Source of the DNA: Nemertoderma westbladi
Taxonomy: Eukaryota > Animalia > Xenacoelomorpha
NCBI GenBank assembly: GCA_032718475.1
Contig: JAUCBJ010003364.1
Location: 1-42,668 of the forward strand
Length of the DNA stretch: 42,668 nucleotides
Reading direction: 5' to 3'
Shown: in pieces, positions 16,924 through 42,668 of the stretch
Numbering within the stretch: position 1 is the stretch's first letter
Layout of the letters: each line of letters opens with the position of its first letter
The notes under the pieces: model-generated
Told to the model about the DNA's origin: nothing
Seen by the model: the letters and a program-made list of their open reading frames with translations, nothing else
Database searches by the model: none
Program-made: the position numbers and the translations under genes

Positions 16924-17086
16924 TGAGATGAAGCGACGTTTAAAGGCCGAGCGCAAGCAGAAGGAGAAGGAAGATAAACAGGTTGCTGACGCCGCTTCGT
17001 CTAAAAATCAACTGGAGACAAATAATGTTGCCGCGGAAACCATTAATGTTTCTAAACTTGTCGACGAGGATCAACTGGATGCCAAT
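16924..17086 (+). CDS. KARS1: Lysyl-tRNA synthetase, first shared exon (N-terminal extension)
   Basis: TAG acceptor ending 16923; EMKRRLKAERKQKEKEDKQ...DEDQLDAN; phase-0 donor AAT|GTAAGA. Confidence 0.92.
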
Positions 17087-17442: not shown

Positions 17443-17582
17443 CAATACCATAAGATCCGCAGCCGGACAATAGCCGCACTAAAACAAACCCCTGAACATC
17501 CATATCCTCACAAGTTCGACGTGTCTGTCAGTCTCAGTGAGTTTATTGAGTTGTACAACGAGACGCCGACGGGAACAATAAA
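17443..17582 (+). CDS. KARS1: Lysyl-tRNA synthetase exon
   Basis: QYHKIRSRTIAALKQTPEHPYPHKFDVSVSLSEFIELY (QYxKIRS...PYPHKF LysRS signature); phase-2 donor AA|GTAAGT. Confidence 0.95.
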
Positions 17583-17793: not shown

Positions 17794-17913
17794 AGAGGAC
17801 ATTACTGTCAGCGTAGCTGGGCGAGTTCACGCTATGCGGGAATCCGGAAGCAAATTAGTGTTTTACGATCTTAGAGGGGAAGGAGTGAAAATACAGATAA
17901 TGGCCAACGCTAG
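17794..17913 (+). CDS. KARS1: Lysyl-tRNA synthetase exon (OB-fold anticodon-binding domain); gene continues beyond the window or is truncated
   Basis: TTTCAG acceptor ending 17793; [39 protein letters not shown](R); phase-2 donor AG|GTGAGT at 17913/17914. Confidence 0.96.
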
Positions 17914-20900
17914 GTGAGTAAATAAACAGATAATGGCAACCAACGTTAGGTGAGTAAATAAACAGATAATGGCCACCAACGTTAGGTGAGTAAATAAACA
18001 GATAATGGCCAACGCTAGGTGAGTAAATAAACAGATAATGGCCACCAACGTTAGGTGAGTAAATAAACAGATAATGGCCACCAACGTTAGGTGAGTAAAT
18101 AAACAGATAATGGCAACCAACGTTAGGTGAGTAAATAAACAGATAATGTAAACCAACGTTAGGTGAGTAAATAAACAGATAATGGCAACCAACGTTAGGT
18201 GAGTAAATAAACAGATAATGGCAACCAACGTTAGGTGAGTAAATAAACAGATAATGGCAACCAACGTTAGGTGAGTAAATAAACAGATAATGGCAACCAA
18301 CGTTAGGTGAGTAAATAAACAGATAATGGCAACCAACGTTAGGTGAGTAAATAAACAGATAATGGCAACCAACGTTAGGTGAGTAAATAAACAGATAATG
18401 GCAACCAACGTTAGGTGAGTAAATAAACAGATAATGGCAACCAACGTTAGGTGAGTAAATAAACAGATAATGGCAACCAACGTTAGGTGAGTAAATAAAC
18501 AGATAATGGCAACCAACGTTAGGTGAGTAAATAAACAGATAATGGCAACCAACGTTAGGTGAGTAAATAAACAGATAATGGCAACCAACGTTAGGTGAGT
18601 AAATAAACAGATAATGGCCACCAACGTTAGGTGAGTAAATAAACAGATAATGGCAACCAACGTTAGGTGAGTAAATAAACAGATAATGGCAACCAACGTT
18701 AGGTGAGTAAATAAACAGATAATGGCAACCAACGTTAGGTGAGTAAATAAACAGATAATGGCAACCAACGTTAGGTGAGTAAATAAACAGATAATGGCAA
18801 CCAACGTTAGGTGAGTAAATAAACAGATAATGGCAACCAACGTTAGGTGAGTAAATAAACAGATAATGGCAACCAACGTTAGGTGAGTAAATAAACAGAT
18901 AATGGCAACCAACGTTAGGTGAGTAAATAAACAGATAATGGCCACCAACGTTAGGTGAGTAAATAAACAGATAATGGCAACCAACGTTAGGTGAGTAAAT
19001 AAACAGATAATGGCAACCAACGTTAGGTGAGTAAATAAACAGATAATGGCAACCAACGTTAGGTGAGTAAATAAACAGATAATGGCAACCAACGTTAGGT
19101 GAGTAAATAAACAGATAATGGCAACCAACGTTAGGTGAGTAAATAAACAGATAATGGCAACCAACGTTAGGTGAGTAAATAAACAGATAATGGCAACCAA
19201 CGTTAGGTGAGTAAATAAACAGATAATGGCAACCAACGTTAGGTGAGTAAATAAACAGATAATGGCAACCAACGTTAGGTGAGTAAATAAACAGATAATG
19301 GCAACCAACGTTAGGTGAGTAAATAAACAGATAATGGCAACCAACGTTAGGTGAGTAAATAAACAGATAATGGCAACCAACGTTAGGTGAGTAAATAAAC
19401 AGATAATGGCAACCAACGTTAGGTGAGTAAATAAACAGATAATGGCAACCAACGTTAGGTGAGTAAATAAACAGATAATGGCAACCAACGTTAGGTGAGT
19501 AAATAAACAGATAATGGCAACCAACGTTAGGTGAGTAAATAAACAGATAATGGCAACCAACGTTAGGTGAGTAAATAAACAGATAATGGCAACCAACGTT
19601 AGGTGAGTAAATAAACAGATAATGGCAACCAACGTTAGGTGAGTAAATAAACAGATAATGGCAACCAACGTTAGGTGAGTAAATAAACAGATAATGGCAA
19701 CCAACGTTAGGTGAGTAAATAAACAGATAATGGCAACCAACGTTAGGTGAGTAAATAAACAGATAATGGCAACCAACGTTAGGTGAGTAAATAAACAGAT
19801 AATGGCCACCAACGTTAGGTGAGTAAATAAACAGATAATGGCAACCAACGTTAGGTGAGTAAATAAACAGATAATGGCCACCAACGTTAGGTGAGTAAAT
19901 AAACAGATAATGGCAACCAACGTTAGGTGAGTAAATAAACAGATAATGGCAACCAACGTTAGGTGAGTAAATAAACAGATAATGGCCACCAACGTTAGGT
20001 GAGTAAATAAACAGATAATGGCAACCAACGTTAGGTGAGTAAATAAACAGATAATGGCAACCAACGTTAGGTGAGTAAATAAACAGATAATGGCCACCAA
20101 CGTTAGGTGAGTAAATAAACAGATAATGGCAACCAACGTTAGGTGAGTAAATAAACAGATAATGGCAACCAACGTTAGGTGAGTAAATAAACAGATAATG
20201 GCCACCAACGTTAGGTGAGTAAATAAACAGATAATGGCAACCAACGTTAGGTGAGTAAATAAACAGATAATGGCAACCAACGTTAGGTGAGTAAATAAAC
20301 AGATAATGGCCACCAACGTTAGGTGAGTAAATAAACAGATAATGGCCACCAACGTTAGGTGAGTAAATAAACAGATAATGGCAACCAACGTTAGGTGAGT
20401 AAATAAACAGATAATGGCAACCAACGTTAGGTGAGTAAATAAACAGATAATGGCAACCAACGTTAGGTGAGTAAATAAACAGATAATGGCAACCAACGTT
20501 AGGTGAGTAAATAAACAGATAATGGCAACCAACGTTAGGTGAGTAAATAAACAGATAATGGCAACCAACGTTAGGTGAGTAAATAAACAGATAATGGCAA
20601 CCAACGTTAGGTGAGTAAATAAACAGATAATGGCAACCAACGTTAGGTGAGTAAATAAACAGATAATGGCAACCAACGTTAGGTGAGTAAATAAACAGAT
20701 AATGGCAACCAACGTTAGGTGAGTAAATAAACAGATAATGGCAACCAACGTTAGGTGAGTAAATAAACAGATAATGGCAACCAACGTTAGGTGAGTAAAT
20801 AAACAGATAATGGCAACCAACGTTAGGTGAGTAAATAAACAGATAATGGCAACCAACGTTAGGTGAGTAAATAAACAGATAATGGCCACCAACGTTAGGT

Positions 20901-23900
20901 GAGTAAATAAACAGATAATGGCAACCAACGTTAGGTGAGTAAATAAACAGATAATGGCAACCAACGTTAGGTGAGTAAATAAACAGATAATGGCAACCAA
21001 CGTTAGGTGAGTAAATAAACAGATAATGGCAACCAACGTTAGGTGAGTAAATAAACAGATAATGGCCACCAACGTTAGGTGAGTAAATAAACAGATAATG
21101 GCAACCAACGTTAGGTGAGTAAATAAACAGATAATGGCAACCAACGTTAGGTGAGTAAATAAACAGATAATGGCCACCAACGTTAGGTGAGTAAATAAAC
21201 AGATAATGGCAACCAACGTTAGGTGAGTAAATAAACAGATAATGGCAACCAACGTTAGGTGAGTAAATAAACAGATAATGGCCACCAACGTTAGGTGAGT
21301 AAATAAACAGATAATGGCAACCAACGTTAGGTGAGTAAATAAACAGATAATGGCAACCAACGTTAGGTGAGTAAATAAACAGATAATGGCCACCAACGTT
21401 AGGTGAGTAAATAAACAGATAATGGCAACCAACGTTAGGTGAGTAAATAAACAGATAATGGCAACCAACGTTAGGTGAGTAAATAAACAGATAATGGCAA
21501 CCAACGTTAGGTGAGTAAATAAACAGATAATGGCAACCAACGTTAGGTGAGTAAATAAACAGATAATGGCAACCAACGTTAGGTGAGTAAATAAACAGAT
21601 AATGGCAACCAACGTTAGGTGAGTAAATAAACAGATAATGGCAACCAACGTTAGGTGAGTAAATAAACAGATAATGGCCACCAACGTTAGGTTAGTAAAT
21701 AAACAGATAATGGCCACCAACGTTAGGTGAGTAAATAAACAGATAATGGCCACCAACGTTAGGTGAGTAAATAAACAGATAATGGCCACCAACGTTAGGT
21801 GAGTAAATAAACAGATAATGGCCACCAACGTTAGGTGAGTAAATAAACAGATAATGGCAACCAACGTTAGGTGAGTAAATAAACAGATAATGGCCACCAA
21901 CGTTAGGTGAGTAAATAAACAGATAATGGCCACCAACGTTAGGTGAGTAAATAAACAGATAATGGCAACCAACGTTAGGTGAGTAAATAAACAGATAATG
22001 GAAACCAACGTTAGCTGAGTAAATAAACAGATAATGGCAACCAACGTTAGGTGAGTAAATAAACAGATAATGGCAACCAACGTTAGGTGAGTAAATAAAC
22101 AGATAATGGCCACCAACGTTAGGTGAGTAAATAAACAGATAATGGCAACCAACGTTAGGTGAGTAAATAAACAGATAATGGCCACCAACGTTAGGTGAGT
22201 AAATAAACAGATAATGGCCACCAACGTTAGGTGAGTAAATAAACAGATAATGGCAACCAACGTTAGGTGAGTAAATAAACAGATAATGGCCACCAACGTT
22301 AGGTGAGTAAATAAACAGATAATGGCCACCAACGTTAGGTGAGTAAATAAACAGATAATGGCAACCAACGTTAGGTGAGTAAATAAACAGATAATGGAAA
22401 CCAACGTTAGCTGAGTAAATAAACAGATAATGGCAACCAACGTTAGGTGAGTAAATAAACAGATAATGGCAACCAACGTTAGGTGAGTAAATAAACAGAT
22501 AATGGCCACCAACGTTAGGTTAGTAAATAAACAGATAATGGCAACCAACGTTAGGTGAGTAAATAAACAGATAATGGCCACCAACGTTAGGTGAGTAAAT
22601 AAACAGATAATGGCCACCAACGTTAGGTGAGTAAATAAACAGATAATGGCCACCAACGTTAGGTGAGTAAATAAACAGATAATGGCCACCAACGTTAGGT
22701 GAGTAAATAAACAGATAATGGCCACCAACGTTAGGTGAGTAAATAAACAGATAATGGCAACCAACGTTAGGTGAGTAAATAAACAGATAATGGCCACCAA
22801 CGTTAGGTGAGTAAATAAACAGATAATGGCCACCAACGTTAGGTGAGTAAATAAACAGATAATGGCAACCAACGTTAGGTGAGTAAATAAACAGATAATG
22901 GCCACCAACGTTAGGTGAGTAAATAAACAGATAATGGCAACCAACGTTAGGAGAGTAAATAAACAGATAATGGCAACCAACGTTAGGTGAGTAAATAAAC
23001 AGATAATGGCAACCAACGTTAGGTGAGTAAATAAACAGATAATGGCAACCAAAGCTCGGTGAGTAAATAAACAGATAATGGCAACCAACGTTAGGTGAGT
23101 AAATAAACAGATAATGGCCACCAACGTTAGGTGAGTAAATAAACAGATAATGGCCTCCAACGTTAGGTGAGTAAATAAACAGATAATGGCAACCAACGTT
23201 AGGTGAGTAAATAAACAGATAATGGCAACCAACGTTAGGAGAGTAAATAAACTGATAATGGCAACCAACGTTAGGTGAGTAAATAAACAGATAATGGCAA
23301 CCAACGTTAGGTGAGTAAATAAACAGATAATGGCAACCAAAGCTCGGTGAGTAAATAAACAGATAATGGCAACCAACGTTAGGTGAGTAAATAAACAGAT
23401 AATGGGAACCAACGTTAGGTGAGTAAATAAACATATAATGGAAACCAACGTTAGGAGAGTAAATAAACAGATAATGGCCACCAACGTTAGATGAGTAAAT
23501 AAACAGATAATGGCCACCAACGTTAGGAGAGTAAATAAACAGATAATGGCAACCAACGTTAGGTGAGTAAATAAACAGATAATGGCCAACGTTAGGTGAG
23601 TAAATAAACAGATAATGGCAACCAACGTTAGGTGAGTAAATAAACAGATAATGGCAACCAACGTTAGGTGAGTAAATAAACAGATAATGGGAACCAACGT
23701 TAGGTGAGTAAATAAACAGATAATGGCCACCAACGTTAGGTGAGTAAATAAACAGATAATGGCCACCAACGTTAGATGAGTAAATAAACAGATAATGGCA
23801 ACCAACGTTAGGTGAGTAAATAAACAGATAATGGCAACCAACGTTAGGTGAGTAAATAAACAGATAATGGCAACCAACGTTAGGTGAGTAAATAAACAGA

Positions 23901-26900
23901 TAATGGGAACCAACGTTAGGTGAGTAAATAAACAGATAATGGCCACCAACGTTAGGTGAGTAAATAAACAGATAATGGCCACCAACGTTAGATGAGTAAA
24001 TAAACAGATAATGGCAACCAACGTTAGGTGAGTAAATAAACAGATAATGGCAACCAACGTTAGGTGAGTAAATAAACAGATAATGGGAACCAACGTTAGG
24101 TGAGTAAATAAACAGATAATGGCCACCAACGTTAGGAGAGTAAATAAACAGATAATGGCAACCAACGTTAGGTGAGTAAATAAACAGATAATGGCAACCA
24201 ACGTTAGGTGAGTAAATAAACAGATAATGGGAACCAACGTTAGGTGAGTAAATAAACAGATAATGGCAACCAACGTTAGGTGAGTAAATAAACAGATAAT
24301 GGGAACCAACGTTAGGTGAGTAAATAAACAGATAATGGCCACCAACGTTAGGTGAGTAAATAAACAGATAATGGCAACCAACGTTAGGTGAGTAAATAAA
24401 CAGATAATGGCCACCAACGTTAGAAGAGTAAATAAACAGATAATGGCAACCAACGTTAGATGAGTAAATAAACAGATAATGGCCACCAACGTTAGATGAG
24501 TAAATAAACAGATAATGGCCACCAACGTTAGGTGAGTCAATAAACAGATAATGGCCACCAACGTTAGGAGAGTAAATAAACAGATAATGGCAACCAACGT
24601 TAGGTGAGTAAATAAACAGATAATGGCAACCAACGTTAGGTGAGTAAATAAACAGATAATGGCCACCAACGTTAGGAGAGTAAATAAACAGATAATGGCC
24701 ACCAACGTTAGGAGAGTAAATAAACAGATAATGGCCACCAACGTTAGGAGAGTAAATAAACAGATAATGGCCACCAACGTTAGATGAGTAAATAAACAGA
24801 TAATGGCAACCAACGTTAGGTGAGTAAATAAACAGATAATGGCCACCAACGTTAGGAGAGTAAATAAACAGATAATGGCAACCAACGTTAGGTGAGTAAA
24901 TAAACAGATAATGGAAACCAACGTTAGGAGAGTAAATAAACAGATAATGGCAACCAACGTTATGTGAGTAAATAAACAGATAATGGCAACCAACGTTAGA
25001 TGAGTAAATAAACAGATAATGGCCACCAACGTTAGATGAGTAAATAAACAGATAATGGCAACCAACGTTAGGTGAGTAAATAAACAGATAATGGCAACCA
25101 ACGTTAGGTGAGTAAATAAACAGATAATGGCCACCAACGTTAGGAGAGTAAATAAACAGATAATGGCCACCAACGTTAGGAGAGTAAATAAACAGATAAT
25201 GGCCACCAACGTTAGATGAGTAAATAAACAGATAATGGCAACCAACGTTAGATGAGTAAATAAACAGATAATGGCAACCAACGTTAGGTGAGTAAATAAA
25301 CAGATAATGGCCACCAACATTAGGTGAGTAAATAAACAGATAATGGCAACCAACGTTAGGTGAGTAAATAAACAGATAATGGCAACCAACGTTAGGTGAG
25401 TAAATAAACAGATAATGGCCACCAAAGTTAGATGAGTAAATAAACAGATAATGGCAACCAACGTTAGGTGAGTAAATAAACAGATAATGGCCACCAACGT
25501 TAGGTGAGTAAATAAACAGATAATGGCCACCAACGTTAGGTGAGTAAATAAACAGATAATGGCCACCAACGTTAGGTGAGTAAATAAACAGATAATGGCC
25601 GCCAACGTTAGGTGAGTAAATAAACAGATAATGGCCACCAACGTTAGGTGAGTAAATAAACAGATAATGGCCGCCAACGTTAGATGAGTAAAAAAACAGA
25701 TAATGGCAACCAACGTTAGATGAGTAAATAAACAGATAATGGCAACCAACGTTAGGTGAGTAAATAAACAGATAATGGCAACCAACGTTAGGTGAGTAAA
25801 TAAACAGATAATGGCCACCAACGTTAGATGAGTAAATAAACAGATAATGGCCACCAACGTTAGATGAGTAAATAAACAGATAATGGCAACCAACGTTAGG
25901 TGAGTAAATAAACAGATAATGGCAACCAACGTTAGATGAGTAAATAAACAGATAATGGCAACCAACGTTAGGTGAGTAAATAAACAGATAATGGCCACCA
26001 ACGTTAGATGAGTAAATAAACAGATAATGGCCACCAACGTTAGATGAGTAAATAAACAGATAATGGCAACCAACGTTAGGTGAGTAAATAAACAGATAAT
26101 GGCCACCAACGTTAGATGAGTAAATAAACAGATAATGGCCACCAACGTTAGATGAGTAAATAAACAGATAATGGCAACCAACGTTAGGTGAGTAAATAAA
26201 CAGATAATGGCCACCAACATTAGGTGAGTAAATAAACAGATAATGGCAACCAACGTTAGGTGAGTAAATAAACAGATAATGGCAACCAACGTTAGGTGAG
26301 TAAATAAACAGATAATGGCAACCAACGTTAGGTGAGTAAATAAACAGATAATGGCAACCAACGATAGGTGAGTAAATAAACAGATAATGGCCACCAACAT
26401 TAGGTGAGTAAATAAACAGATAATGGCAACCAACGTTAGGTGAGTAAATAAACAGATAATGGCAACCAACGTTAGGTGAGTAAATAAACAGATAATGGCA
26501 ACCAACGTTAGATGAGTAAATAAACAGATAATGGCCACCAACGTTAGATGAGTAAATAAACAGATAATGGCAACCAACGTTAGGTGAGTAAATAAACAGA
26601 TAATGGCCACCAACGTTAGGTGAGTAAATAAACAGATAATGGCAACCAACGTTAGGTGAGTAAATAAACAGATAATGGCAACCAACGTTAGGTGAGTAAA
26701 TAAACAGATAATGGCCACCAACGTTAGATGAGTAAATAAACAGATAATGGCAACCAACGTTAGATGAGTAAATAAACAGATAATGGCCACCAACGTTAGA
26801 TGAGTAAATAAACAGATAATGGCAACCAACGTTAGGTGAGTAAATAAACAGATAATGGCCACCAACGTTAGGTGAGTAAATAAACAGATAATGGCAACCA

Positions 26901-29900
26901 ACGTTAGGTGAGTAAATAAACAGATAATGGCAACCAACGTTAGGTGAGTAAATAAACAGATAATGGCAACCAACGTTAGGTGAGTAAATAAACAGATAAT
27001 GGCAACCAACGTTAGGTGAGTAAATAAACAGATAATGGCAACCAACGTTAGGTGAGTAAATAAACAGATAATGGCAACCAACGTTAGGTGAGTAAATAAA
27101 CAGATAATGGCAACCAACGTTAGGTGAGTAAATAAACAGATAATGGCAACCAACGTTAGGTGAGTAAATAAACAGATAATGGCAACCAACGTTAGGTGAG
27201 TAAATAAACAGATAATGGCAACCAACGTTAGGTGAGTAAATAAACAGATAATGGCAACCAACGTTAGGTGAGTAAATAAACAGATAATGGCAACCAACGT
27301 TAGGTGAGTAAATAAACAGATAATGGCAACCAACGTTAGGTGAGTAAATAAACAGATAATGGCAACCAACGTTAGGTGAGTAAATAAACAGATAATGGCA
27401 ACCAACGTTAGGTGAGTAAATAAACAGATAATGGCAACCAACGTTAGATGAGTAAATAAACAGATAATGGCAACCAACGTTAGATGAGTAAATAAACAGA
27501 TAATGGCAACCAACGTTAGGTGAGTAAATAAACAGATAATGGCAACCAACGTTAGGTGAGTAAATAAACAGATAATGGCAACCAACGTTAGGTGAGTAAA
27601 TAAACAGATAATGGCAACCAACGTTAGGTGAGTAAATAAACAGATAATGGCAACCAACGTTAGGTGAGTAAATAAACAGATAATGGCAACCAACGTTAGG
27701 TGAGTAAATAAACAGATAATGGCAACCAACGTTAGGTGAGTAAATAAACAGATAATGGCAACCAACGTTAGGTGAGTAAATAAACAGATAATGGCAACCA
27801 ACGTTAGGTGAGTAAATAAACAGATAATGGCAACCAACGTTAGATGAGTAAATAAACAGATAATGGCAACCAACGTTAGATGAGTAAATAAACAGATAAT
27901 GGCAACCAACGTTAGGTGAGTAAATAAACAGATAATGGCAACCAACGTTAGGTGAGTAAATAAACAGATAATGGCAACCAACGTTAGGTGAGTAAATAAA
28001 CAGATAATGGCAACCAACGTTAGGTGAGTAAATAAACAGATAATGGCAACCAACGTTAGGTGAGTAAATAAACAGATAATGGCAACCAACGTTAGGTGAG
28101 TAAATAAACAGATAATGGCAACCAACGTTAGATGAGTAAATAAACAGATAATGGCAACCAACGTTAGGTGAGTAAATAAACAGATAATGGCAACCAACGT
28201 TAGGTGAGTAAATAAACAGATAATGGCAACCAACGTTAGATGAGTAAATAAACAGATAATGGCAACCAACGTTAGGTGAGTAAATAAACAGATAATGGCA
28301 ACCAACGTTAGGTGAGTAAATAAACAGATAATGGCAACCAACGTTAGATGAGTAAATAAACAGATAATGGCAACCAACGTTAGGTGAGTAAATAAACAGA
28401 TAATGGCAACCAACGTTAGGTGAGTAAATAAACAGATAATGGCCACCAACGTTAGGTGAGTAAATAAACAGATAATGGCCACCAACGTTAGATGAGTAAA
28501 TAAACAGATAATGGCAACCAACGTTAGGTGAGTAAATAAACAGATAATGGCAACCAACGTTAGGTGAGTAAATAAACAGATAATGGCAACCAACGTTAGA
28601 TGAGTAAATAAACAGATAATGGCAACCAACGTTAGGTGAGTAAATAAACAGATAATGGCAACCAACGTTAGGTGAGTAAATAAACAGATAATGGCAACCA
28701 ACGTTAGGTGAGTAAATAAACAGATAATGGCAACCAACGTTAGATGAGTAAATAAACAGATAATGGCAACCAACGTTAGGTGAGTAAATAAACAGATAAT
28801 GGCAACCAACGTTAGATGAGTAAATAAACAGATAATGGCAACCAACGTTAGGTGAGTAAATAAACAGATAATGGCAACCAACGTTAGGTGAGTAAATAAA
28901 CAGATAATGGCCACCAACGTTAGATGAGTAAATAAACAGATAATGGCAACCAACGTTAGGTGAGTAAATAAACAGATAATGGCAACCAACGTTAGGTGAG
29001 TAAATAAACAGATAATGGCAACCAACGTTAGGTGAGTAAATAAACAGATAATGGCAACCAACGTTAGGTGAGTAAATAATCAGATAATGGAAACCAACGT
29101 TAGGTGAGTAAATAAACAGATAATGGCTGCCAACGTTAGAGGAGTAAATAAACAGATAATGGAAACCAACGTTAGGTGAGTAAATAAACAGATAATGGCC
29201 ACCAACGTTAGGTGAGTAAATAAACCGATAATGGCAACCAACGTTAGGTGAGTAAATAAACAGATAATGGCCACCAACGTTAGGTGAGTAAATAAACAGA
29301 TAATGGCAACCAACGTTAGGTGAGTAAATAAACAGATAATGGCAACCAATGCTAGGTGAGTAAATAAACAGATAATGGCAACCAACGTTAGGTGAGTAAA
29401 TAAACAGATAATGGCAACCAACACTAGGTGAGTAAATAAACAGATAATGGAAACCAACGATAGGTGAGTAAATAAACAGATAATGGCAACCAACATTAGG
29501 TGATTAAATAAACAGAAAATGGCAACCAACGCTAGGTGAGTAAATAAACAGATAATGGAAACCAACGTTAGGTGAGTAAATAAACAGATAATGGCAACCA
29601 ACGTTAGGTGAGTAAATAAACAGATAATGGCAACCAACGTTAGGTGAGTAAATAAACAGATAATGGCAACCAACGTTTGGTGAGTAAATAAACAGATAAT
29701 GGAAACCAACGTTAGGTGAGTAAATAAACAGATAATGGCCACCAACGTTAGGTGAGTAAATAAACAGATAATGGCAACCAACGCTAGGTGAGTAAATAAA
29801 CAGATAATGGAAACCAACGTTAGGTGAGTAAATAAACAGATAATGGCAACCAACGTTAGGTGAGTAAATAAACAGATAATGGCAACCAACGTTAGGTGAG

Positions 29901-32900
29901 TAAATAAACAGATAATGGCCACCAACGTTAGGTGAGTAAATAAACAGATAATGGCCACCAACGTTAGGTGAGTAAATAAACAGATAATGGAAACCAACGT
30001 TAGGTGAGTAAATAAACAGATAATGGCAACCAACGTTAGGTGAGTAAATAAACAGATAATGGCCACCAACGTTAGGTGAGTAAATAAACAGATAATGGCA
30101 ACCAACGTTAGGTGAGTAAATAAACAGATAATGGAAACCAACGTTAGGTGAGTAAATAAACAGATAATGGCCACCAACGTTAGGTGAGTAAATAAACAGA
30201 TAATGGCAACCAACGTTAGGTGAGTAAATAAACAGATAATGGCAACCAACGTTAGGTGAGTAAATAAACAGATAATGGCAACCAACGTTAGGTGAGTAAA
30301 TAAACAGATAATGGCAACCAACGTTTGGTGAGTAAATAAACAGATAATGGAAACCAACGTTAGGTGAGTAAATAAACAGATAATGGCCACCAACGTTAGG
30401 TGAGTAAATAAACAGATAATGGCAACCAACGCTAGGTGAGTAAATAAACAGATAATGGCAACCAACGTTAGGTGAGTAAATAAACAGATAATGGCTGCCA
30501 ACGTTAGAGGAGTAAATAAACAGATAATGGAAACCAACGTTAGGTGAGTAAATAAACAGATAATGGCAACCAACGTTAGGTGAGTAAATAAACAGATAAT
30601 GGCAACCAACGTTAGGTGAGTAAATAAACAGATAATGGCTGCCAACGTTAGAGGAGTAAATAAACAGATAATGGAAACCAACGTTAGGTGAGTAAATAAA
30701 CAGATAATGGCCACCAACGTTAGGTGAGTAAATAAACCGATAATGGCAACCAACGTTAGGTGAGTAAATAAACAGATAATGGCCACCAACGTTAGGTGAG
30801 TAAATAAACAGATAATGGCAACCAACGTTAGGTGAGTAAATAAACAGATAATGGCAACCAACGCTAGGTGAGTAAATAAACAGATAATGGAAACCAACGT
30901 TAGGTGAGTAAATAAACAGATAATGGCAACCAACGTTAGGTGAGTAAATAAACAGATAATGGCAACCAACGTTAGATGAGTAAATAGACAGATAATGGCA
31001 ACCAACGTTAGGTGAGTAAATAAACAGATAATGGCAACCAACGTTAGGAGAGTAAATAAACAGATAATGGCAACCAACGTTAGGTGAGTAAATAAACAGA
31101 TAATGGCAACCAACGTTAGGTGAGTAAATAAACAGATAATGGCAACCAACGTTAGGTGAGTAAATAAACAGATAATGGCCACCAACGTTAGGTGAGTAAA
31201 TAAACAGATAATGGCAACCAACGTTAGGTGAGTAAATAAACAGATAATGGCAACCAACGTTAGGTGAGTAAATAAACAGATAATGGCAACCAACGTTAGG
31301 TGAGTAAATAAACAGATAATGGCAACCAACGTTAGGTGAGTAAATAAACAGATAATGGCAACCAACGTTAGGTGAGTAAATAAACAGATAATGGCAACCA
31401 ACGTTAGGTGAGTAAATAAACAGATAATGGCAACCAACGTTAGGTGAGTAAATAAACAGATAATGGCAACCAACGTTAGGTGAGTAAATAAACAGATAAT
31501 GGCAACCAACGTTAGGTGAGTAAATAAACAGATAATGGCCACCAACGTTAGGTGAGTAAATAAACAGATAATGGCAACCAACGTTAGGTGAGTAAATAAA
31601 CAGATAATGGCAACCAACGTTAGATGAGTAAATAGACAGATAATGGCAACCAACCTTAGGTGAGTAAATAAACAGATAATGGCAACCAACGTTAGGTGAG
31701 TAAATAAACAGATAAATGGCAACCAACGTTAGGTGAGTAAATAAACAGATAATGGCAACCAACGTTAGGTGAGTAAATAAACAGATAATGGCAACCAACG
31801 TTAGGTGAGTAAATAAACAGATAATGGCAACCAAAGTTCGGTGAGTAAATAAACAGATAATGGCAACCAAAGTTCGGTGAGTAAATAAACAGATAAATGG
31901 CAACCAACGTTAGGTGAGTAAATAAACAGATAAATGGCAACCAACGTTAGGTGAGTAAATAAACAGATAATGGAAACCAACGTTAGGTGAGTAAATAAAC
32001 AGATAATGGCAACCAACGTTAGGTGAGTAAATAAACAGATAATGGCAACCAACGTTAGGTGAGTAAATAAACAGATAATGGCAACCAACGTTAGGTGAGT
32101 AAATAAACAGATAATGGCAACCAACGTTAGGTGAGTAAATAAACAGATAATGGCAACCAAAGTTCGGTGAGTAAATAAACAGATAATGGCAACCAAAGTT
32201 CGGTGAGTAAATAAACAGATAAATGGCAACCAACGTTAGGTGAGTAAATAAACAGATAAATGGCAACCAACGTTAGGTGAGTAAATAATCGGGAGAATAG
32301 CAACCAACGTTAGGTGAGTAAATAAACAGATAATGGAAACCAACGTTAGGTGAGTAAATAAACAGATAATGGCCACCAACGTTAGGTGAGTAAATAAACA
32401 GATAATGGCAACCAAAGTTAGGTGAGTAAATAAACAGATAATGGCAACCAACGTTAGGTGAGTAAATAAACAGATAAATGGCAACCAACGTTAGGTGAGT
32501 AAATAAACAGATAATGGCAACCAACGTTAGATGAGTAAATAGACAGATAATGGCAACCAACGTTAGGTGAGTAAATAAACAGATAATGGCAACCAACATT
32601 AGGTGAGTAAATAAACAGATAATGGCCACCAACGTTAGGTGAGTAAATAAACAGATAATGGAAACCAACATTAGGTGAGTAAATAAACAGATAATGGCAA
32701 CCAACGTTAGGTGAGTAAATAAACAGATAATGGCAACCAACGTTAGGTGAGTAAATAAACAGATAATGGCAACCAACGTTAGGTGAGTAAATAAACAGAT
32801 AATGGCCACCAACATTAGGTGAGTAAATAAACAGATAATGGCCACCAACGTTAGATGAGTAAATAAACAGATAATGGCAACCAACGTTAGGTGAGTAAAT

Positions 32901-35900
32901 AAACAGATAATGGCAACCAACGTTAGGTGAGTAAATAAACAGATAATGGCAACCAACGTTAGGTGAGTAAATAAACAGATAATGGCAACCAACGTTAGGT
33001 GAGTAAATAAACAGATAATGGCAACCAACGTTAGGTGAGTAAATAAACAGATAATGGCAACCAACGTTAGGTGAGTAAATAAACAGATAATGGCAACCAA
33101 CGTTAGGTGAGTAAATAAACAGATAATGGCCACCAACGTTAGATGAGTAAATAGACAGATAATGGCAACCAACCTTAGGTGAGTAAATAAACAGATAATG
33201 GCAACCAACGTTAGGTGAGTAAATAATCAGATAATGGCCACCAACGTTAGATGAGTAAATAGACAGATAATGGCAACCAACCTTAGGTGAGTAAATAAAC
33301 AGATAATGGCAACCAACGTTAGGTGAGTAAATAAACAGATAATGGCAACCAACGTTAGGTGAGTCAATAAACAGATAATGGCAACCAACGTTAGGTGAGT
33401 AAATAAATAGATAATGGCAACCAACGTTAGGTGAGTAAATAAACAGATAATGGCCACCAACGTTAGGTGAGTAAATAAACAGATAATGGCAACCAACGTT
33501 AGGTGAGTAAATAAATAGATAATGGCAACCAACGTTAGGTGAGTAAATAAACAGATAATGGCAACCAACGTTAGGTGAGTAAATAAACAGATAATGGCAA
33601 CCAACGTTAGGTGAGTAAATAAACAGATAATGGCCACCAACGTTAGGTGAGTAAATAAACAGATAATGGCCACCAACGTTAGGTGAGTAAATAAACAGAA
33701 AATGGCAACCAACGTTATGTGAGTAAATAAACAGATAATGGCAACCAACGTTAGGTGAGTAAATAAACAGATAATGGCAACCAACGTTAGGTGAGTAAAT
33801 AAACAGATAATGGCAACCAACGTTAGGTGAGTAAATAAACAGATAATGGAAACCAACGTTAGGTGAGTAAATAAACAGAAAATGGCAACCAACGTTAGGT
33901 GAGTAAATAAACAGATAATGGCAACCAACGTTAGGTGAGTAAATAAACAGATAATGGCCACCAACGTTAGGTGAGTAAATAAACAGATAATGGCCACCAA
34001 CGTTAGGTGAGTAAATAAACAGATAATGGCAACCAACGTTAGGTGAGTAAATAAACAGAAAATGGCAACCAACGTTAGGTGAGTAAATAATCGGGAGAAT
34101 AGCAACCAACGTTAGGTGAGTAAATAAACAGAAAATGGCCACCAACGTTAGGTGAGTAAATAAACAGATAATGGCAACCAACGTTAGGAGAGTAAATAAA
34201 CAGATAATGGCAACCAACGTTAGGTGAGTAAATAAACAGATAATGGCAACCAACGTTAGGAGAGTAAATAAACAGATAATGGCAACCAACGTTAGGTGAG
34301 TAAATAAACAGATAATGGCAACCAACGTTAGGTGAGTAAATAAACAGATAATGGCAACCAACGTTAGGTGAGTAAATAAACAGATAATGGCCGCCAACGT
34401 TAGGTGAGTCAATAAACAGATAATGGAAACCAACGTTAGGTGAGTAAATAAACAGATAATGGCAACCAACGTTAGGTGAGTAAATAAACAGATAATGGCA
34501 ACCAACGTTAGGTGAGTAAATAAACAGATAATGGCAACCAACGTTAGGTGAGTAAATAAACAGATAATGGCAACCAACGTTAGGTGAGTAAATAAACAGA
34601 TAATGGCAACCAACGTTATGTGAGTAAATAAACAGATAATGGCAACCAACGTTAGGAGAGTAAATAAACAGATAATGGCAACCAACGTTATGTGAGTAAA
34701 TAAACAGATAATGGCAACCAACGTTAGGTGAGTAAATAAACAGATAATGGCAACCAACGTTAGGAGAGTAAATAAACAGATAATGGCAACCAACGTTAGG
34801 TGAGTAAATAAACAGATAATGGCCGCCAACGTTAGGTGAGTCAATAAACAGATAATGGAAACCAACGTTAGGAGAGTAAATAAACAGATAATGGCAACCA
34901 ACGTTAGGTGAGTAAATAAACAGATAATGGCAACCAACGTTAGGTGAGTAAATAAACAGATAATGGCAACCAACGTTAGGTGAGTAAATAAACAGATAAT
35001 GGCAACCAACGTTAGGTGAGTAAATAAACAGATAATGGCCGCCAACGTTAGGTGAGTAAATAAACAGATAATGGCAACCAACGTTAGGTGAGTAAATAAA
35101 CAGATAATGGCCGCCAACGTTAGGTGAGTCAATAAACAGATAATGGAAACCAACGTTAGGAGAGTAAATAAACAGATAATGGCAACCAACGTTAGGTGAG
35201 TAAATAAACAGATAATGGCAACCAACGTTAGGTGAGTAAATAAACAGATAATGGCAACCAACGTTAGGTGAGTAAATAAACAGATAATGGCCGCCAACGT
35301 TAGGTGAGTCAATAAACAGATAATGGAAACCAACGTTAGGTGAGTAAATAAACAGATAATGGCAACCAACGTTAGGTGAGTAAATAAACAGATAATGGCA
35401 ACCAACGTTAGGTGAGTAAATAAACAGATAATGGCAACCAACGTTAGGTGAGTAAATAAACAGATAATGGCAACCAACGTTAGGTGAGTAAATAAACAGA
35501 TAATGGCAACCAACGTTATGTGAGTAAATAAACAGATAATGGCAACCAACGTTAGGAGAGTAAATAAACAGATAATGGCAACCAACGTTATGTGAGTAAA
35601 TAAACAGATAATGGCAACCAACGTTAGGTGAGTAAATAAACAGATAATGGCAACCAACGTTAGGAGAGTAAATAAACAGATAATGGCAACCAACGTTAGG
35701 TGAGTAAATAAACAGATAATGGCAACCAACGTTAGGTGAGTAAATAAACAGATAATGGCAACCAACGTTAGGTGAGTAAATAAACAGATAATGGCCGCCA
35801 ACGTTAGGTGAGTAAATAAACAGATAATGGCAACCAACGTTAGGTGAGTAAATAAACAGATAATGGCCGCCAACGTTAGGTGAGTCAATAAACAGATAAT

Positions 35901-38900
35901 GGAAACCAACGTTAGGAGAGTAAATAAACAGATAATGGCAACCAACGTTAGGTGAGTAAATAAACAGATAATGGCAACCAACGTTAGGTGAGTAAATAAA
36001 CAGATAATGGCAACCAACGTTAGGTGAGTAAATAAACAGATAATGGCCGCCAACGTTAGGTGAGTCAATAAACAGATAATGGAAACCAACGTTAGGTGAG
36101 TAAATAAACAGATAATGGCAACCAACGTTAGGTGAGTAAATAAACAGATAATGGCAACCAACGTTAGGTGAGTAAATAAACAGATAATGGCAACCAACGT
36201 TAGGTGAGTAAATAAACAGATAATGGCAACCAACGTTAGGTGAGTAAATAAACAGATAATGGCAACCAACGTTATGTGAGTAAATAAACAGATAATGGCA
36301 ACCAACGTTAGGAGAGTAAATAAACAGATAATGGCAACCAACGTTATGTGAGTAAATAAACAGATAATGGCAACCAACGTTAGGTGAGTAAATAAACAGA
36401 TAATGGCAACCAACGTTAGGAGAGTAAATAAACAGATAATGGCAACCAACGTTAGGTGAGTAAATAAACAGATAATGGCAACCAACGTTAGGTGAGTAAA
36501 TAAACAGATAATGGCAACCAACGTTAGGTGAGTAAATAAACAGATAATGGCCACCAACGTTAGGTGAGTAAATAAACAGATAATGGAAACCAACGTTAGG
36601 TGAGTAAATAAACAGATAATGGCCACCAACGTTAGGTGAGTAAATAAACAGATAATGGCAACCAACGTTAGGTGAGTAAATAAACAGATAATGGCAACCA
36701 ACGTTAGGTGAGTAAATAAACAGATAATGGCAACCAACGTTAGGTGAGTAAATAAACAGATAATGGCAACCAATGTTAGGAGAGTAAATAAACAGATAAT
36801 GGCAACCAACGTTAGGTGAGTAAATAAACAGATAATGGCAACCAACGTTAGGAGAGTAAATAAACAGATAATGGCAACCAACGTTAGGTGAGTAAATAAA
36901 CAGATAATGGCAACCAACGTTAGGTGAGTAAATAAACAGATAATGGAAACCAACGTTAGGTGAGTAAATAAACAGATAATGGCCGCCAACGTTAGGTGAG
37001 TAAATAAACAGATAATGGAAACCAACGTTAGGTGAGTAAATAAACAGATAATGGCAACCAACGTTAGGAGAGTAAATAAACAGATAATGGCAACCAAAGT
37101 TCGGTGAGTAAATAAACAGATAATGGCAACCAACGTTAGGTGAGTAAATAAACAGATAATGGAAACCAACGCTAGGTGAGTAAATAAACAGATAATGGCA
37201 ACCAACGTTAGGTGAGTAAATAAACAGATAATGGCAACCAACGTTAGGTGAGTAAATAAACAGATAATGGCAACCAACGTTAGGTGAGTAAATAAACAGA
37301 TAATGGCAACCAACGTTAGGTGAGTAAATAAACAGATAATGGCAACCAACGTTAGGTGAGTAAATAAACAGATAATGGCAACCAACGTTAGGTGAGTAAA
37401 TAAACAGATAATGGCAACCAACGTTAGGTGAGTAAATAAACAGATAATGGCAACCAACGTTAGGTGAGTAAATAAACAGATAATGGCAACCAACGTTAGG
37501 TGAGTAAATAAACAGATAATGGCAACCAACGTTAGGTGAGTAAATAAACAGATAATGGCAACCAACGTTAGGTGAGTAAATAAACAGATAATGGCAACCA
37601 ACGTTAGGTGAGTAAATAATCAGATAATGGCAACCAACGTTAGGTGAGTAAATAAACAGATAATGGCAACCAACGTTAGGTGAGTAAATAAACAGATAAT
37701 GGCAACCAACGTTAGGTGAGTAAATAAACAGATAATGGCAACCAACGTTAGGTGAGTAAATAAACAGATAATGGCAACCAACGTTAGGTGAGTAAATAAA
37801 CAGATAATGGCAACCAACGTTAGGTGAGTAAATAAACAGATAATGGCAACCAACGTTAGGTGAGTAAATAAACAGATAATAGCAACCAACGTTAGGTGAG
37901 TAAATAAACAGATAATGGCCGCCAACGTTAGGTGAGTAAATAAACAGATAATGGCAACCAACGTTAGGTGAGTAAATAAACAGATAATAGCAACCAACGT
38001 TAGGTGAGTAAATAAACAGATAATGGCAACCAAAGTTCGGTGAGTAAATAAACAGATAATGGCAACCAACGTTAGGTGAGTAAATAAACAGATAATGGCA
38101 ACCAAAGTTAGGTGAGTAAATAAACAGATAATGGCAACCAAAGTTGGGTGAGTAAATAAACAGATAATGGCAACCAACGTTAGGTGAGTAAATAAACAGA
38201 TAATGGCAACCAACGTTAGGTGAGTAAATAAACAGATAATGGCAACCAACGTTAGGTGAGTAAATAAACAGATAATGGCAACCAACGTTAGGTGAGTAAA
38301 TAAACAGATAATGGCAACCAAAGTTCGGTGAGTAAATAAACAGATAATGGCCACCAACGTTAGGTGAGTAAATAAACAGATAATGACAACCAACGTTAGG
38401 TGAGTAAATAAACAGATAATGGCAACCAACGTTAGGTGAGTAAATAAACAGATAATGACAACCAACGTTAGGTGAGTAAATAAACAGATAATGGCAACCA
38501 AAGTTCGGTGAGTAAATAAACAGATAATGGCCACCAACGTTAGGTGAGTAAATAAACAGATAATGGAAACCAACGTTAGGTGAGTAAATAAACAGATAAT
38601 GGCAACCAAAGTTAGGTGAGTAAATAAACAGATAATGGCAACCAAAGTTAGGTGAGTAAATAAACAGATAATGGCAACCAACGTTAGGTGAGTAAATAAA
38701 CAGATAATGGCCGCCAACGTTAGGTGAGTAAATAAACAGATAATGACAACCAACGTTAGGTGAGTAAATAAACAGATAATGGCAACCAAAGTTCGGTGAG
38801 TAAATAAACAGATAATGGCAACCAACGTTAGGTGAGTAAATAAACAGATAATGGCAACCAACGTTAGGTGAGTAAATAAACAGATAATGGAAACCAACGT

Positions 38901-41900
38901 TAGGTGAGTAAATAAACAGATAATGGCAACCAACGTTAGGAGAGTAAATAAACAGATAATGGCAACCAAAGTTCGGTGAGTAAATAAACAGATAATGGCA
39001 ACCAACGTTAGGTGAGTAAATAAACAGATAATGGCAACCAACGTTAGGTGAGTAAATAAACAGATAATGGCAACCAACGTTATGTGAGTAAATAAACAGA
39101 TAATGGAAACCAACGTTAGGTGAGAAAATAAACAGATAATGGCAACCAACGTTAGGTGAGTAAATAAACAGATAATGGCAACCAACGTTAGGAGAGTAAA
39201 TAAACAGATAATGGCAACCAAAGTTCGGTGAGTAAATAAACAGATAATGGCAACCAACGTTAGGTGAGTAAATAAACAGATAATGGCAACCAACGTTAGG
39301 AGAGTAAATAAACAGATAATGGCAACCAACGTTAGGTGAGTAAAGAAACAGATAATGGCAACCAACGTTAGGTGAGTAAATAAACAGATAATGGCAACCA
39401 ACTTTAGGAGAGTAAATAAACAGATAATGGCAACCAAAGTTCGGTGAGTAAATAAACAGATAATGGCAACCAACGTTAGGTGAGTAAATAAACAGATAAT
39501 GGCAACCAACGTTAGGTGAGTAAATAAACAGATAATGGCAACCAACGTTAGGTGAGTAAATAAACAGATAATGGCAACCAACGTTAGGTGAGTAAATAAA
39601 CAGATAATGGCAACCAAAGTTCGGTGAGTAAATAAACAGATAATGGCAACCAACGTTAGGTGAGTAAATAAACAGATAATGGCAACCAACGTTAGGTGAG
39701 TAAATAAACAGATAATGGAAACCAACGTTAGGTGAGTAAATAAACAGATAATGGCAACCAACGTTAGGAGAGTAAATAAACAGATAATGGCAACCAAAGT
39801 TCGGTGAGTAAATAAACAGATAATGGCAACCAACGTTAGGAGAGTAAATAAACAGATAATGGCAACCAACGTTAGGTGAGTAAATAAACAGATAATGGCC
39901 GCCAACGTTAGGTGAGTAAATAAACAGATAATGGCCGCCAACGTTATGTGAGTAAATAAACAGATAATGGCCACCAACGTTAGGAGAGTAAATAAACAGA
40001 TAATGGCAACCAACGTTAGGAGAGTAAATAAACAGATAATGGCAACCAACGTTAGGTGAGTAAATAAACAGATAATGGCAACCAACGTTAGGAGAGTAAA
40101 TAAACAGATAATGGAAACCAACGTTAGGTGAGTAAATAAACAGATAATGGCCACCAACGTTAGGTGAGTAAATAAACAGATAATGGCAACCAACGTTAGG
40201 TGAGTAAATAAACAGATAATGGCAACCAACGTTAGGAGAGTAAATAAACAGATAATGGCAACCAACGTTAGGTGAGTAAATAAACAGATAATGGCAACCA
40301 ACGTTAGGTGAGTAAATAAACAGATAATGGCAACCAACGTTAGGTGAGTAAATAAACAGATAATGGCAACCAACGTTAGGTGAGTAAATAAACAGATAAT
40401 GGCAACCAACGTTAGGTGAGTAAATAAACAGATAATGGCAACCAACGTTAGGTGAGTAAATAAACAGATAATGACAACCAACGTTAGGTGAGTAAATAAA
40501 CAGATAATGGCCGCCAACGTTAGGTGAGTAAATAAACAGATAATGGCAACCAACGTTAGGTGAGTCAATAAACAGATAATGGCAACCAACGTTAGGTGAG
40601 TAAATAAACAGATAATGGCAACCAACGTTAGGTGAGTAAATAAACAGATAATGGCAACCAACGTTAGGTGAGTAAATAAACAGATAATGGCCGCCAACGT
40701 TAGGTGAGTAAATAAACAGATAATGGCAACCAACGTTAGGTGAGTCAATAAACAGATAATGGCCACCAACGATAGGTGAGTAAATAAACAGATAATGGCA
40801 ACCAACGTTAGGTGAGTAAATAAACAGATAATGGCCACCAACGATAGGTGAGTAAATAAACAGATAATGGCAACCAACGTTAGGTGAGTAAATAAACAGA
40901 TAATGGCCACCAACGTTAGGTGAGTAAATAAACAGATAATGGCAACCAACGTTAGGTGAGTAAATAAACAGATAATGGCAACCAACGTTAGGTGAGTAAA
41001 TAAACAGATAATGGCAACCAACGTTAGGTGAGTAAATAAACAGATAATGGCAACCAACGTTAGGTGAGTAAATAAACAGATAATGGCCACCAACGTTAGG
41101 TGAGTAAATAAACAGATAATGGCAACCAACGTTAGGTGAGTAAATAAACAGATAATGGCCACCAACGTTAGGTGAGTAAATAAACAGATAATGGCAACCA
41201 ACGTTAGGTGAGTAAATAAACAGATAATGGCAACCAACGTTAGGTGAGTAAATAAACAGATAATGGCCGCCAACGTTAGGTGAGTAAATAAACAGATAAT
41301 GGCAACCAGCGTTAGGTGAGTAAATAAACAGATAATGGCAACCAACGTTAGGTGAGTAAATAAACAGATAATGGCCACCAACGTTAGGTGAGTAAATAAA
41401 CAGATAATGGCCACCAACGATAGGTGAGTAAATAAACAGATAATGGCAACCAACGTTAGGTGAGTAAATAAACAGATAATGGCCACCAACGTTAGGTGAG
41501 TAAATAAACAGATAATGGCAACCAACGTTAGGTGAGTAAATAAACAGATAATGGCAACCAACGTTAGGTGAGTAAATAAACAGATAATGGCAACCAACGT
41601 TAGGTGAGTAAATAAACAGATAATGGCAACCAACGTTAGGTGAGTAAATAAACAGATAATGGCCACCAACGTTAGGTGAGTAAATAAACAGATAATGGCA
41701 ACCAACGTTAGGTGAGTAAATAAACAGATAATGGCCACCAACGTTAGGTGAGTAAATAAACAGATAATGGCAACCAACGTTAGGTGAGTAAATAAACAGA
41801 TAATGGCAACCAACGTTAGGTGAGTAAATAAACAGATAATGGCCGCCAACGTTAGGTGAGTAAATAAACAGATAATGGCAACCAGCGTTAGGTGAGTAAA

Positions 41901-42641
41901 TAAACAGATAATGGCAACCAACGTTAGGTGAGTAAATAAACAGATAATGGCCACCAACGTTAGGTGAGTAAATAAACAGATAATGGCAACCAACGTTAGG
42001 TGAGTAAATAAACAGATAATGGCAACCAACGTTAGGTGAGTAAATAAACAGATAATGGCAACCAACGTTAGGTGAGTAAATAAACAGATAATGGCAACCA
42101 ACGTTAGGTGAGTAAATAAACAGATAATGGCCACCAACGTTAGGTGAGTAAATAAACAGATAATGGCCACCAACGTTAGGTGAGTAAATAAACAGATAAT
42201 GGTAACAAACGTTAGGTGAGTAAATAAACAGATAATGGCAACCAACGTTAGGTGAGTAAATAAACAGATAATGGCCGCCAACGTTAGGTGAGTAAATAAA
42301 CAGATAATGGAAACCAACGTTAGGTGAGTAAATAAACAGATAATGGCAACCAACGTTAGGTGAGTAAATAAACAGATAATGGCCACCAACGTTAAGTGAG
42401 TAAATAAACAGATAATGGCCACCAACGTTAGGTGAGTAAATAAACAGATAATGGCCACCAACGTTAGGTGAGTAAATAAACAGATAATGGCAACCAACGT
42501 TAGGTGAGTAAATAAACAGATAATGGCAACCAACGTTAGGTGAGTAAATAAACAGATAATGGCAACCAACGTTAGGTGAGTAAATAAACAGATAATGGCA
42601 ACCAACGTTAGGTGAGTAAATAAACAGATAATGGCAACCAA
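17897..42641 (+). repeat. 36-bp tandem satellite (~690 copies, ~24.7 kb) derived from the KARS1 exon/intron junction
   Basis: Consensus ATAATGGCAACCAACGTTAGGTGAGTAAATAAACAG repeated head-to-tail without spacers; the first copy overlaps the last 17 nt of the exon (ATAATGGCCAACGCTAG). Confidence 0.99.
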
Positions 42642-42668
42642 TGTGACGGGATCCAGGAGGGATCCCGA

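What the first reader, a model, noticed from the sequence alone, without database searches (positions are those of the whole stretch)
17888..42641. A 25-kb satellite made of an amplified exon/intron junction: ~690 tandem splice donors inside an essential gene
Seen: the monomer is the last ~17-20 nt of the KARS1 exon (IMANAR codons) plus the first 16 nt of its intron, so almost every copy carries a strong U1-type donor TAG|GTGAGTAA essentially identical to the real one. About 114 consecutive copies keep GT before the first donor-destroying variant (CTGAGT near 22015). Reading past the first donor gives AGG TGA, and all three plus-strand frames contain stops, so only donor #1 is productive. Established: animals usually have one LysRS gene serving both cytosol and mitochondria, so loss should be lethal. 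Inference: the cell must select the first of hundreds of equivalent donors or remove the array stepwise. This would be an extreme natural case of splice-site choice, and possibly a class of splice-junction satellites in this genome.
Basis: partly seen in the sequence, partly recalled or inferred. Interest (0 to 1): 0.92.

Follow-up and report, generated by a model that had tools for sequence, protein, structure and literature searches.

The report
Giant splice-donor satellite in lysyl-tRNA synthetase
In an animal's lysine-tRNA-charging gene, a 36-base piece covering the end of an exon and its splice signal is repeated at least 687 times over 25 kb, yet the assembled RNA uses the first signal, so this is likely a harmless but unusually large example of a repeat type already known from human and lancelet genes.

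Summary
A 36-bp unit forms 687.5 copies at 17893-42641, and its first copy straddles the exon 4/intron 4 border of a lysyl-tRNA synthetase (KARS1) gene. 600 of 687 copies keep GT and 556 match the real donor from -3 to +8; the first GT loss is copy 115 (22015).

It is not an assembly artefact. The unit's k-mer depth is about 1,000 times the flank's in run X1, the array joins the same exon in a second sample, and it has higher-order blocks. The gene is live: spliced contigs from two studies leave at donor 1 into the next KARS exon, and no internal-donor product was seen, although contigs and decay would hide rare ones.

The kind is known: donor-spanning minisatellites (human F7, CBS, 6-16; amphioxus 'mirages'), where the most upstream donor is normally used. 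What is new is scale, about 25-100 times the copy numbers I found in print. Structure masking and an antisense protein were tested and rejected. Each unit also carries AATAAA just behind its U1 site. Verdict: new, extreme member of a known kind.

The parts
16209..16237 (+). KARS1 exon 1, coding part (cytosolic start, MDTEEKMSK-N); the transcribed 5' part reaches at least 16084
   Evidence: translation; joint 16237>16924 GT..AG in X4 and X5 contigs
16385..16479 (+). Predicted alternative first exon for a mitochondrial isoform (MFRLAIKPP...; phase-2 GT donor at 16480)
   Evidence: sequence and frame only; not seen in the RNA contigs; role inferred from the recalled human KARS1 layout
16924..17086 (+). 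KARS1 exon 2
   Evidence: joints 16237>16924 and 17086>17443
17443..17582 (+). KARS1 exon 3
   Evidence: homologs are animal lysyl-tRNA ligases, 55-61% identical; joints
17794..17913 (+). KARS1 exon 4 (start of the anticodon-binding OB fold); its last 21 nt are the start of the first repeat unit
   Evidence: Pfam PF01336; PDB human LysRS; joint 17582>17794
17911..17921 (+). Authentic 5' splice site (donor 1), TAG|GTGAGTAA, phase 2; the strongest U1 match of the gene's five donors in the window
   Evidence: X4 and X5 contigs leave here into the next KARS exon; duplex energy -12.2 versus -3.3 to -6.5 kcal/mol
17893..42641 (+). 36-bp donor-spanning tandem array: 687 full copies, 600 with GT, 675 AATAAA hexamers, higher-order blocks
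   Evidence: depth
22015..22016 (+). First donor-destroying variant (GT>CT), copy 115
42642..42668 (.). Start of a high-copy dispersed repeat (begins TG, possibly an LTR end) that cuts the array mid-monomer
   Evidence: summed depth 14,000-21,000 in X1, X2, X3 with several different left flanks; the LTR reading is an untested guess

Best explanation
This is a donor-spanning ('mirage') tandem repeat grown to satellite size inside intron 4 of an expressed KARS1 gene, and the mature mRNA is spliced from the first donor, likely because that donor is the first one transcribed and the only one with a real exon and acceptor upstream of it. Origin (inferred): a slip between similar short sequences in the exon end (GTGA-AAATA-CAG) and the intron start (GTGA-GT-AAATA-AA-CAG) duplicated the junction. 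Unequal exchange then amplified and homogenised the unit, while the coding first copy was held to the protein sequence. Splicing (outcome shown, mechanism inferred): exon 4's pyrimidine-rich acceptor pairs with donor 1 by exon definition or 5'-to-3' scanning. Internal copies have AG dinucleotides but no polypyrimidine tract, so they are unlikely to define exons. Any slip to a later donor puts TGA straight after the Arg codon, so the product would be a nonsense-decay target. The array is probably tolerated rather than functional.
For: Spliced contigs in X4 (study P2) and X5 (study P3) show three GT..AG joints, stop matching at 17913/17914 and continue into sequence that reads R-NYESEALYLA by my hand translation, like the residues after MANA in homologs. 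The X4 contig is 1,984 nt, with 0 mismatches over the four exons, about the length of a full LysRS mRNA. X4 comes from the same sample as DNA-like runs X2 and X3, in which exon 4 runs into the array. In X5 the depth over 17901-17961 (429.7) equals the mRNA contig's 14-nt share exactly (1872.2 x 14/61), so no repeat contig was laid at about 1,870x mRNA depth. X4 has one free unit contig at 75.8x and no unit-to-exon-5 loose end. Real acceptors have 10-11 pyrimidines (7-9 T) in the 14 nt upstream; no AG in the array has more than 8 (at most 4 T). Higher-order blocks: a 21-monomer block holding 9 rare variants is duplicated at 34920/35676, versus 2-3 rare variants in 20 shuffles. Copy 4 is identical to the coding copy. 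GT loss is tolerated in 87 of 687 copies. Precedent: PMC1557585, PMC3087553, PMC3902484.
Against: The runs are Logan contigs labelled 'DNA?'; that X4 and X5 are RNA is my inference from their joints. Contigs drop rare forms, and decay would remove mis-spliced RNA, so fidelity at the splicing step is not measured. In human 6-16 and CBS the next two donors are used (as cited in the PMC1557585 introduction), so some leak is plausible. No DNA run exists for the X5 sample, so that animal's array is unverified. Size varies by run: about 960-1,090x in X1, at least about 100x in X2 (100-1,600 depending on contig lengths), only 65x in X3. The downstream exons were not located in DNA. The two GT positions rank 2nd and 4th of 36 in variant copies (6 of 630 position pairs do as well; post hoc), a weak hint of selection against donors rather than strict neutrality.
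Confidence: 0.75

Rival explanations
1. The array is removed stepwise by recursive splicing: joining donor 1 to an internal TAG regenerates AG|GTGAGT, so the intron is shortened in rounds.
For: Geometry allows it: 556 copies read TAG|GTGAGTAA. The end product would be the same mRNA that is seen.
Against: No polypyrimidine tract before any array AG (at most 8 of 14 pyrimidines and at most 4 T, versus 10-11 and 7-9 at real acceptors). AG before GT is expected from the unit's origin as a donor.
Confidence: 0.07
2. The array is functional: each unit's U1 site shields the AATAAA that sits 7 nt behind it (telescripting), or leaky donors feed nonsense-mediated decay and tune KARS1 levels.
For: AATAAA lies at intron +8..+13 and occurs 675 times in the array, versus 30 in the 17.9 kb before it. 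The donor is the gene's best U1 match. Every slip creates an immediate stop. Telescripting is described in a passage of PMC7544216.
Against: GT is among the most often mutated positions while AATAAA is kept, the opposite of what shielding predicts. The unit is A-rich with no clear GU/U-rich downstream element (read from the sequence).
Confidence: 0.08
3. The array sits in a dead or separate copy or allele, and the mRNA comes from an array-free KARS1 copy.
For: The genome is not held and the 3' exons were not located. The loose-end table was cut (102 rows not shown).
Against: X4 mRNA matches this copy with 0 mismatches. DNA contigs cross 17913 unbroken into the array in X1 (17337-17940) and X2 (to 17933), and the X3 flank contig does the same. 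Flank depth is flat at 10-11.4 in X1.
Confidence: 0.04
4. The 25 kb is an assembly over-expansion of a few copies.
For: X3 gives only a 65-fold unit-to-flank ratio, about 110 copies. X1 may be the source sample of the window.
Against: X1 unit depth is 10,903 against 10-11.4 for the flank, where the window's own copies predict about 400-fold per haplotype. There are 67 monomer types in nested higher-order blocks. X2 shows many variant contigs. The array has no GATC site, so a restriction-based library would under-sample it, but the X3 library is not on record.
Confidence: 0.03
5. The array encodes an antisense repeat protein, since two minus-strand frames of the unit are stop-free.
For: Minus-strand stop-free stretches of up to 3,738 codons.
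Against: At least two minus frames are open in 13,199 of 20,000 shuffled units. 10 of 41 substitution types are synonymous against 27 of 108 possible. Eight 37-bp units shift the frame.
Confidence: 0.02

Closest known systems
Human F7 intron 7 37-bp VNTR (Borensztajn et al. 2006, PMC1557585; abstract, introduction and parts 3-4 of 6 read)
   Same: First unit spans the exon/intron border; identical donors follow; only the most upstream is used; unit length 37 versus 36 bp.
   Different: F7 has 5-9 copies (up to 12 in minigenes); here at least 687 (about 25 kb) with higher-order structure. The F7 unit holds 4 exon nt, this one 17-21. The donor here is a much better U1 match and is followed by AATAAA.
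Amphioxus 'mirage' minisatellites (Adh3, globins BflGb6/BflGb9, TnC, PGBD5; passages of PMC3087553 and PMC3902484; the original Adh3 paper not read)
   Same: Tandem copies of an exon/intron boundary in an invertebrate gene that do not disturb normal splicing; concerted evolution within the cluster.
   Different: The globin examples have 3-6 units. Nothing in the passages seen approaches hundreds of copies.
Human CBS intron 13 31-bp VNTR and 6-16 (IFI6) intron 2 minisatellite (CBS passages in PMC2630376; splicing data second-hand from the PMC1557585 introduction)
   Same: Donor repeated in every unit, and the unit includes a long exonic part (CBS: 24 exon + 7 intron nt).
   Different: 16-21 and 26 copies. 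In both, two extra donors are used, whereas none was detected here (contig-level evidence only).
Satellite-filled giant introns of Drosophila Y-linked genes (passages of PMC11207136)
   Same: Satellite DNA transcribed as part of an intron and removed by splicing.
   Different: Those introns reach megabases in germline genes, and nothing in the passages seen says their units are splice donors. Here the unit is the gene's own donor in a housekeeping gene.

Membership tests
Donor-spanning minisatellite ('mirage', F7-type) | First tandem unit overlaps a real exon/intron boundary | tested here: met
   Unit 1 = 17893-17925; exon ends at 17913 by RNA contigs
Donor-spanning minisatellite ('mirage', F7-type) | Following units reiterate the splice signal inside the intron | tested here: met
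   556 of 687 identical at -3..+8; 600 of 687 keep GT
Donor-spanning minisatellite ('mirage', F7-type) | Normal mRNA is made from the most upstream donor | tested here: met
   X4 and X5 contigs, two studies; minor forms not measurable
Donor-spanning minisatellite ('mirage', F7-type) | Copy number varies between alleles or individuals | tested here: inconclusive
   Unit-to-flank ratio about 1,000 (X1), 100-1,600 (X2), 65 (X3), but X2 and X3 are one sample and libraries are not on record
Donor-spanning minisatellite ('mirage', F7-type) | Silent donors are functional and the next one takes over when the first is mutated | not testable with these tools
   Needs a minigene; shown for F7 in PMC1557585
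Donor-spanning minisatellite ('mirage', F7-type) | Minisatellite scale (a few to a few tens of copies) | tested here: not met
   At least 687 copies, 24.7 kb. Size is a trait of the known cases rather than of the mechanism, so it is treated as the point of difference.
Recursive-splicing (ratchet) sites | AG|GT with a strong donor | tested here: met
   TAG|GTGAGT in most units
Recursive-splicing (ratchet) sites | Polypyrimidine tract before the AG (feature recalled) | tested here: not met
   At most 8 of 14 pyrimidines and at most 4 T, versus 10-11 and 7-9 at real acceptors
Recursive-splicing (ratchet) sites | Intermediate junction reads or saw-tooth nascent coverage | not testable with these tools
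   Only contigs were available
Intron born by tandem duplication of an AG|GT proto-splice site | Intron absent from orthologs, and a duplicated copy supplies the acceptor | tested here: inconclusive
   mRNA continues into new exon sequence, not into a repeat copy. Ortholog intron position not verified: two searches found nothing relevant; I recall, unverified, a human intron at the same codon.
Eukaryotic class II lysyl-tRNA synthetase (KARS1) | OB-fold anticodon domain homologous to human LysRS | tested here: met
Eukaryotic class II lysyl-tRNA synthetase (KARS1) | Single gene with cytosolic and mitochondrial first exons | tested here: inconclusive
   Candidate exon 16385-16479 is in frame but absent from contigs; no genome to count copies

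The most novel reading that the evidence does not exclude
At hundreds to over a thousand copies, a unit that packs a near-perfect U1 site directly against a poly(A) hexamer makes this intron a regulatory device: U1 loading on the array keeps KARS1 transcription from ending early, or the array is ratcheted out stepwise, so array length and donor decay set the output of an essential gene and are under selection.
Probability: 0.12. Interest if true: 0.75.

Novelty: new member of a known kind. Interest (0 to 1): 0.42.

Why it matters
The first-donor rule was worked out on 5-12 copies in human minigenes. This locus shows correct mRNA being made with at least 600 GT donors in a row, in a housekeeping gene of an animal with no close relative in the protein collection searched. 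It is a ready natural test of whether position alone explains donor choice, how much is left to nonsense-mediated decay, and whether U1 can shield 675 poly(A) hexamers. It also shows that a junction duplication can seed a satellite with higher-order structure at what looks like a single locus. It does not, on present evidence, reveal a new mechanism.

Tried and rejected
RNA-structure masking of internal donors: rejected. The opening energy of the 11-nt U1 window is 2.3-2.9 kcal/mol for donor 1 against about 2.4-3.1 for consensus copies at three window sizes, and six consensus units fold no better than shuffles (z -0.91).

Antisense coding repeat: rejected.

Genome-wide scan for similar arrays, location of exon 5 and KARS copy count: not possible, no genome is held. 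Look-ups of earlier findings by place and by sequence returned nothing.

The mitochondrial exon and the introns have no cover in X4 and X5, which is no evidence either way. No contig bridging the array-to-tail junction and no unique 3' exit of the array was listed (191 records not shown), which is also no evidence.

Lineage: not resolved. The neighbouring PP2A-B55 exon is 75-80% identical to vertebrate, arthropod and mollusc proteins alike among the 120 of 215 hits listed (one 46% oomycete hit), so I say only 'an animal'.

Rfam at gathering threshold on 1-18300: 0 matches. Conservation of the intron position in human KARS1: two searches gave nothing usable. PMC10078293 passages showed no donor-array case.

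Full report
Observation. Tandem Repeats Finder reports one array from 17893 to 42641 with period 36, 687.5 copies and 96% matches. Parsing gives 687 full units (676 of 36 bp, 8 of 37, 3 of 33) and a partial one. The first unit is the last 21 nt of an exon plus 12 intron nt. The exon (17794-17913) encodes the start of the LysRS anticodon-binding fold (Pfam PF01336; human LysRS 123-160, E 6e-14). 600 of 687 units keep GT and 556 are identical to the real donor from -3 to +8. The first 114 are unbroken and unit 115 has CT at 22015. Read-through gives AGG TGA, and all plus frames have stops.

The gene. Upstream exons lie at 16209-16237, 16924-17086 and 17443-17582, with GT..AG introns of 686, 356 and 211 nt. 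A candidate mitochondrial first exon lies at 16385-16479. Exon 3 finds animal lysyl-tRNA ligases at 55-61% identity (4 hits among 10 candidates). The host is an animal with no close relative in the collection searched. No genome is held.

Is the gene spliced? Six public runs were listed, none on record as RNA; five were laid. X4 and X5, from two studies, cover only exons and carry all three upstream joints, so I take them as RNA. Both contigs stop matching at 17913/17914 and continue into sequence that I translate as R-NYESEALYLA. Homologs have KYYESPEAF, SSYKSEELF and KLYTSEEEF at the matching place. The X4 contig is 1,984 nt with no mismatch to the four exons, and X4 is from the same sample as X2 and X3, where exon 4 runs into the array. 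In X5, with mRNA depth 1,872, the depth over the first two units is exactly what the mRNA contig alone gives, so no repeat contig was laid. In X4 a single free unit contig has depth 75.8 against 57.9 for the mRNA, with no loose end leading to exon 5. That caps repeat RNA at about 1.3 consensus units per transcript from all sources. Limits: contigs drop rare forms, decay would remove mis-spliced RNA, and the X5 sample has no DNA run.

Is the array real? In X1 the unit contig has depth 10,903 against 10-11.4 for the flank, a ratio of 960-1,090. The window's own copies predict about 400 per haplotype, so the depth fits about 820-940 units per haplotype if the flank depth is haploid, or about 1,650-1,880 if it is diploid. 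X1 may be the source sample, but depth does not depend on the assembly. X2 gives between about 100 and 1,600 depending on contig lengths. X3 gives only 65, which counts against a uniform large size; the array lacks GATC and that library is not on record. Internally, a 21-unit block with 9 rare variants is duplicated, against 2-3 in 20 shuffles, as unequal exchange would produce. Exon 4 was the only unique flank listed for the unit in X1 and X3, which fits a single locus. The array ends mid-unit at a 27-nt tail with summed depth 14,000-21,000 and several other left flanks, so it is cut by a high-copy element and may resume beyond the window.

How it most likely works. Shown: the mature mRNA uses donor 1. 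Inferred: position decides. Donor 1 and donor 2 have the same U1 duplex energy (-12.2 kcal/mol) and similar accessibility, and the array is not specially structured, so neither strength nor masking separates them. What donor 1 alone has is a real acceptor 120 nt upstream. Real acceptors have 10-11 pyrimidines in 14 nt, while no AG in the array has more than 8, with at most 4 T. This fits exon definition and 5'-to-3' scanning and argues against recursive removal. A slip to any later donor adds TGA at once, so decay would act as a safety net (inferred). The origin is likely a slip between similar short sequences at the exon end and the intron start (sequence comparison). Copy 4 is identical to the coding copy, and the internal consensus would add a residue if it overwrote copy 1.

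Each unit has AATAAA at intron +8..+13, 675 in all, so U1 shielding of poly(A) sites is conceivable (telescripting, passage in PMC7544216). But GT decays while AATAAA stays. The two GT positions rank 2nd and 4th of 36 in variant copies (49 and 42 of 676; 6 of 630 position pairs and 2 of 36 adjacent pairs do as well), yet hold only 4 of 41 substitution types. This is a weak, post hoc hint of selection against donors. Two minus-strand frames are open for thousands of codons, but that occurs in 66% of shuffled units, and there is no excess of synonymous types.

What is known. PMC1557585 (abstract, introduction, parts 3-4 of 6 read) describes the human F7 37-bp VNTR whose first unit spans the exon 7 border. 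It has 5-9 copies, only the first donor is used, copy number up to 12 does not change this, and stronger downstream sites compete only when perfect. Its introduction lists 6-16 (25 pseudo-sites), CBS (15-20), LAMIN B2 (10-15) and PDGF (16-18). Amphioxus 'mirages' are the invertebrate equivalent and do not disturb splicing (passages of PMC3087553 and PMC3902484). Five literature searches (listings seen, open-licence library only; supplements not consulted) turned up no donor array of hundreds of copies. The largest among this scan's unchecked earlier notes is about 56. The same notes show the kind turning up in sharks, a ray, an abalone and an annelid, so it is common.

Verdict. Real, expressed, correctly spliced, and of a known kind. 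It stands out for size, about 25 times the largest published case I saw and about 100 times F7, and for lying in a housekeeping gene. New member of a known kind; interest 0.42.

Noticed in passing
window 3183-6671 (+): PP2A regulatory subunit B55 gene in three coding exons (3183-3394, 3581-4038, 6006-6671); the last exon is up to 80% identical to animal B55 proteins.
   Followed up: partly
window 4200-4400 and 5330-5740: Inside the B55 intron, fragments that read by eye like a non-LTR retrotransposon reverse transcriptase (GVLQGDTLAP motif), interrupted by another insert with C/G runs at its ends.
   Followed up: no
window 42642-42668: High-copy element starting with TG cuts the array mid-unit; seen with several other left flanks in three runs. 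Possibly an LTR end.
   Followed up: partly
window 17229-17270: Short dispersed repeat in KARS1 intron 2 with very high summed depth and many flanks in all four runs laid.
   Followed up: no
window 16385-16479: Candidate mitochondrial-targeting first exon of KARS1, in frame with exon 2, not present in the RNA contigs.
   Followed up: partly
window 2102-2671, 11713-12323, 12913-13537: Other composite minisatellites (52-65 bp, 19/30/32 bp, 141-173 bp units); none overlaps a mapped exon end.
   Followed up: partly
window 17893-42641 (-): Two minus-strand frames of the unit are stop-free, giving spurious ORFs of up to 3,738 codons that could mislead gene callers; expected from composition.
   Followed up: yes
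window 23644-26523: A zone where about 38% of units have lost GT (mainly GT>AT and GT>GA), whereas the first 114 and the last 47 or so units all keep it.
   Followed up: partly
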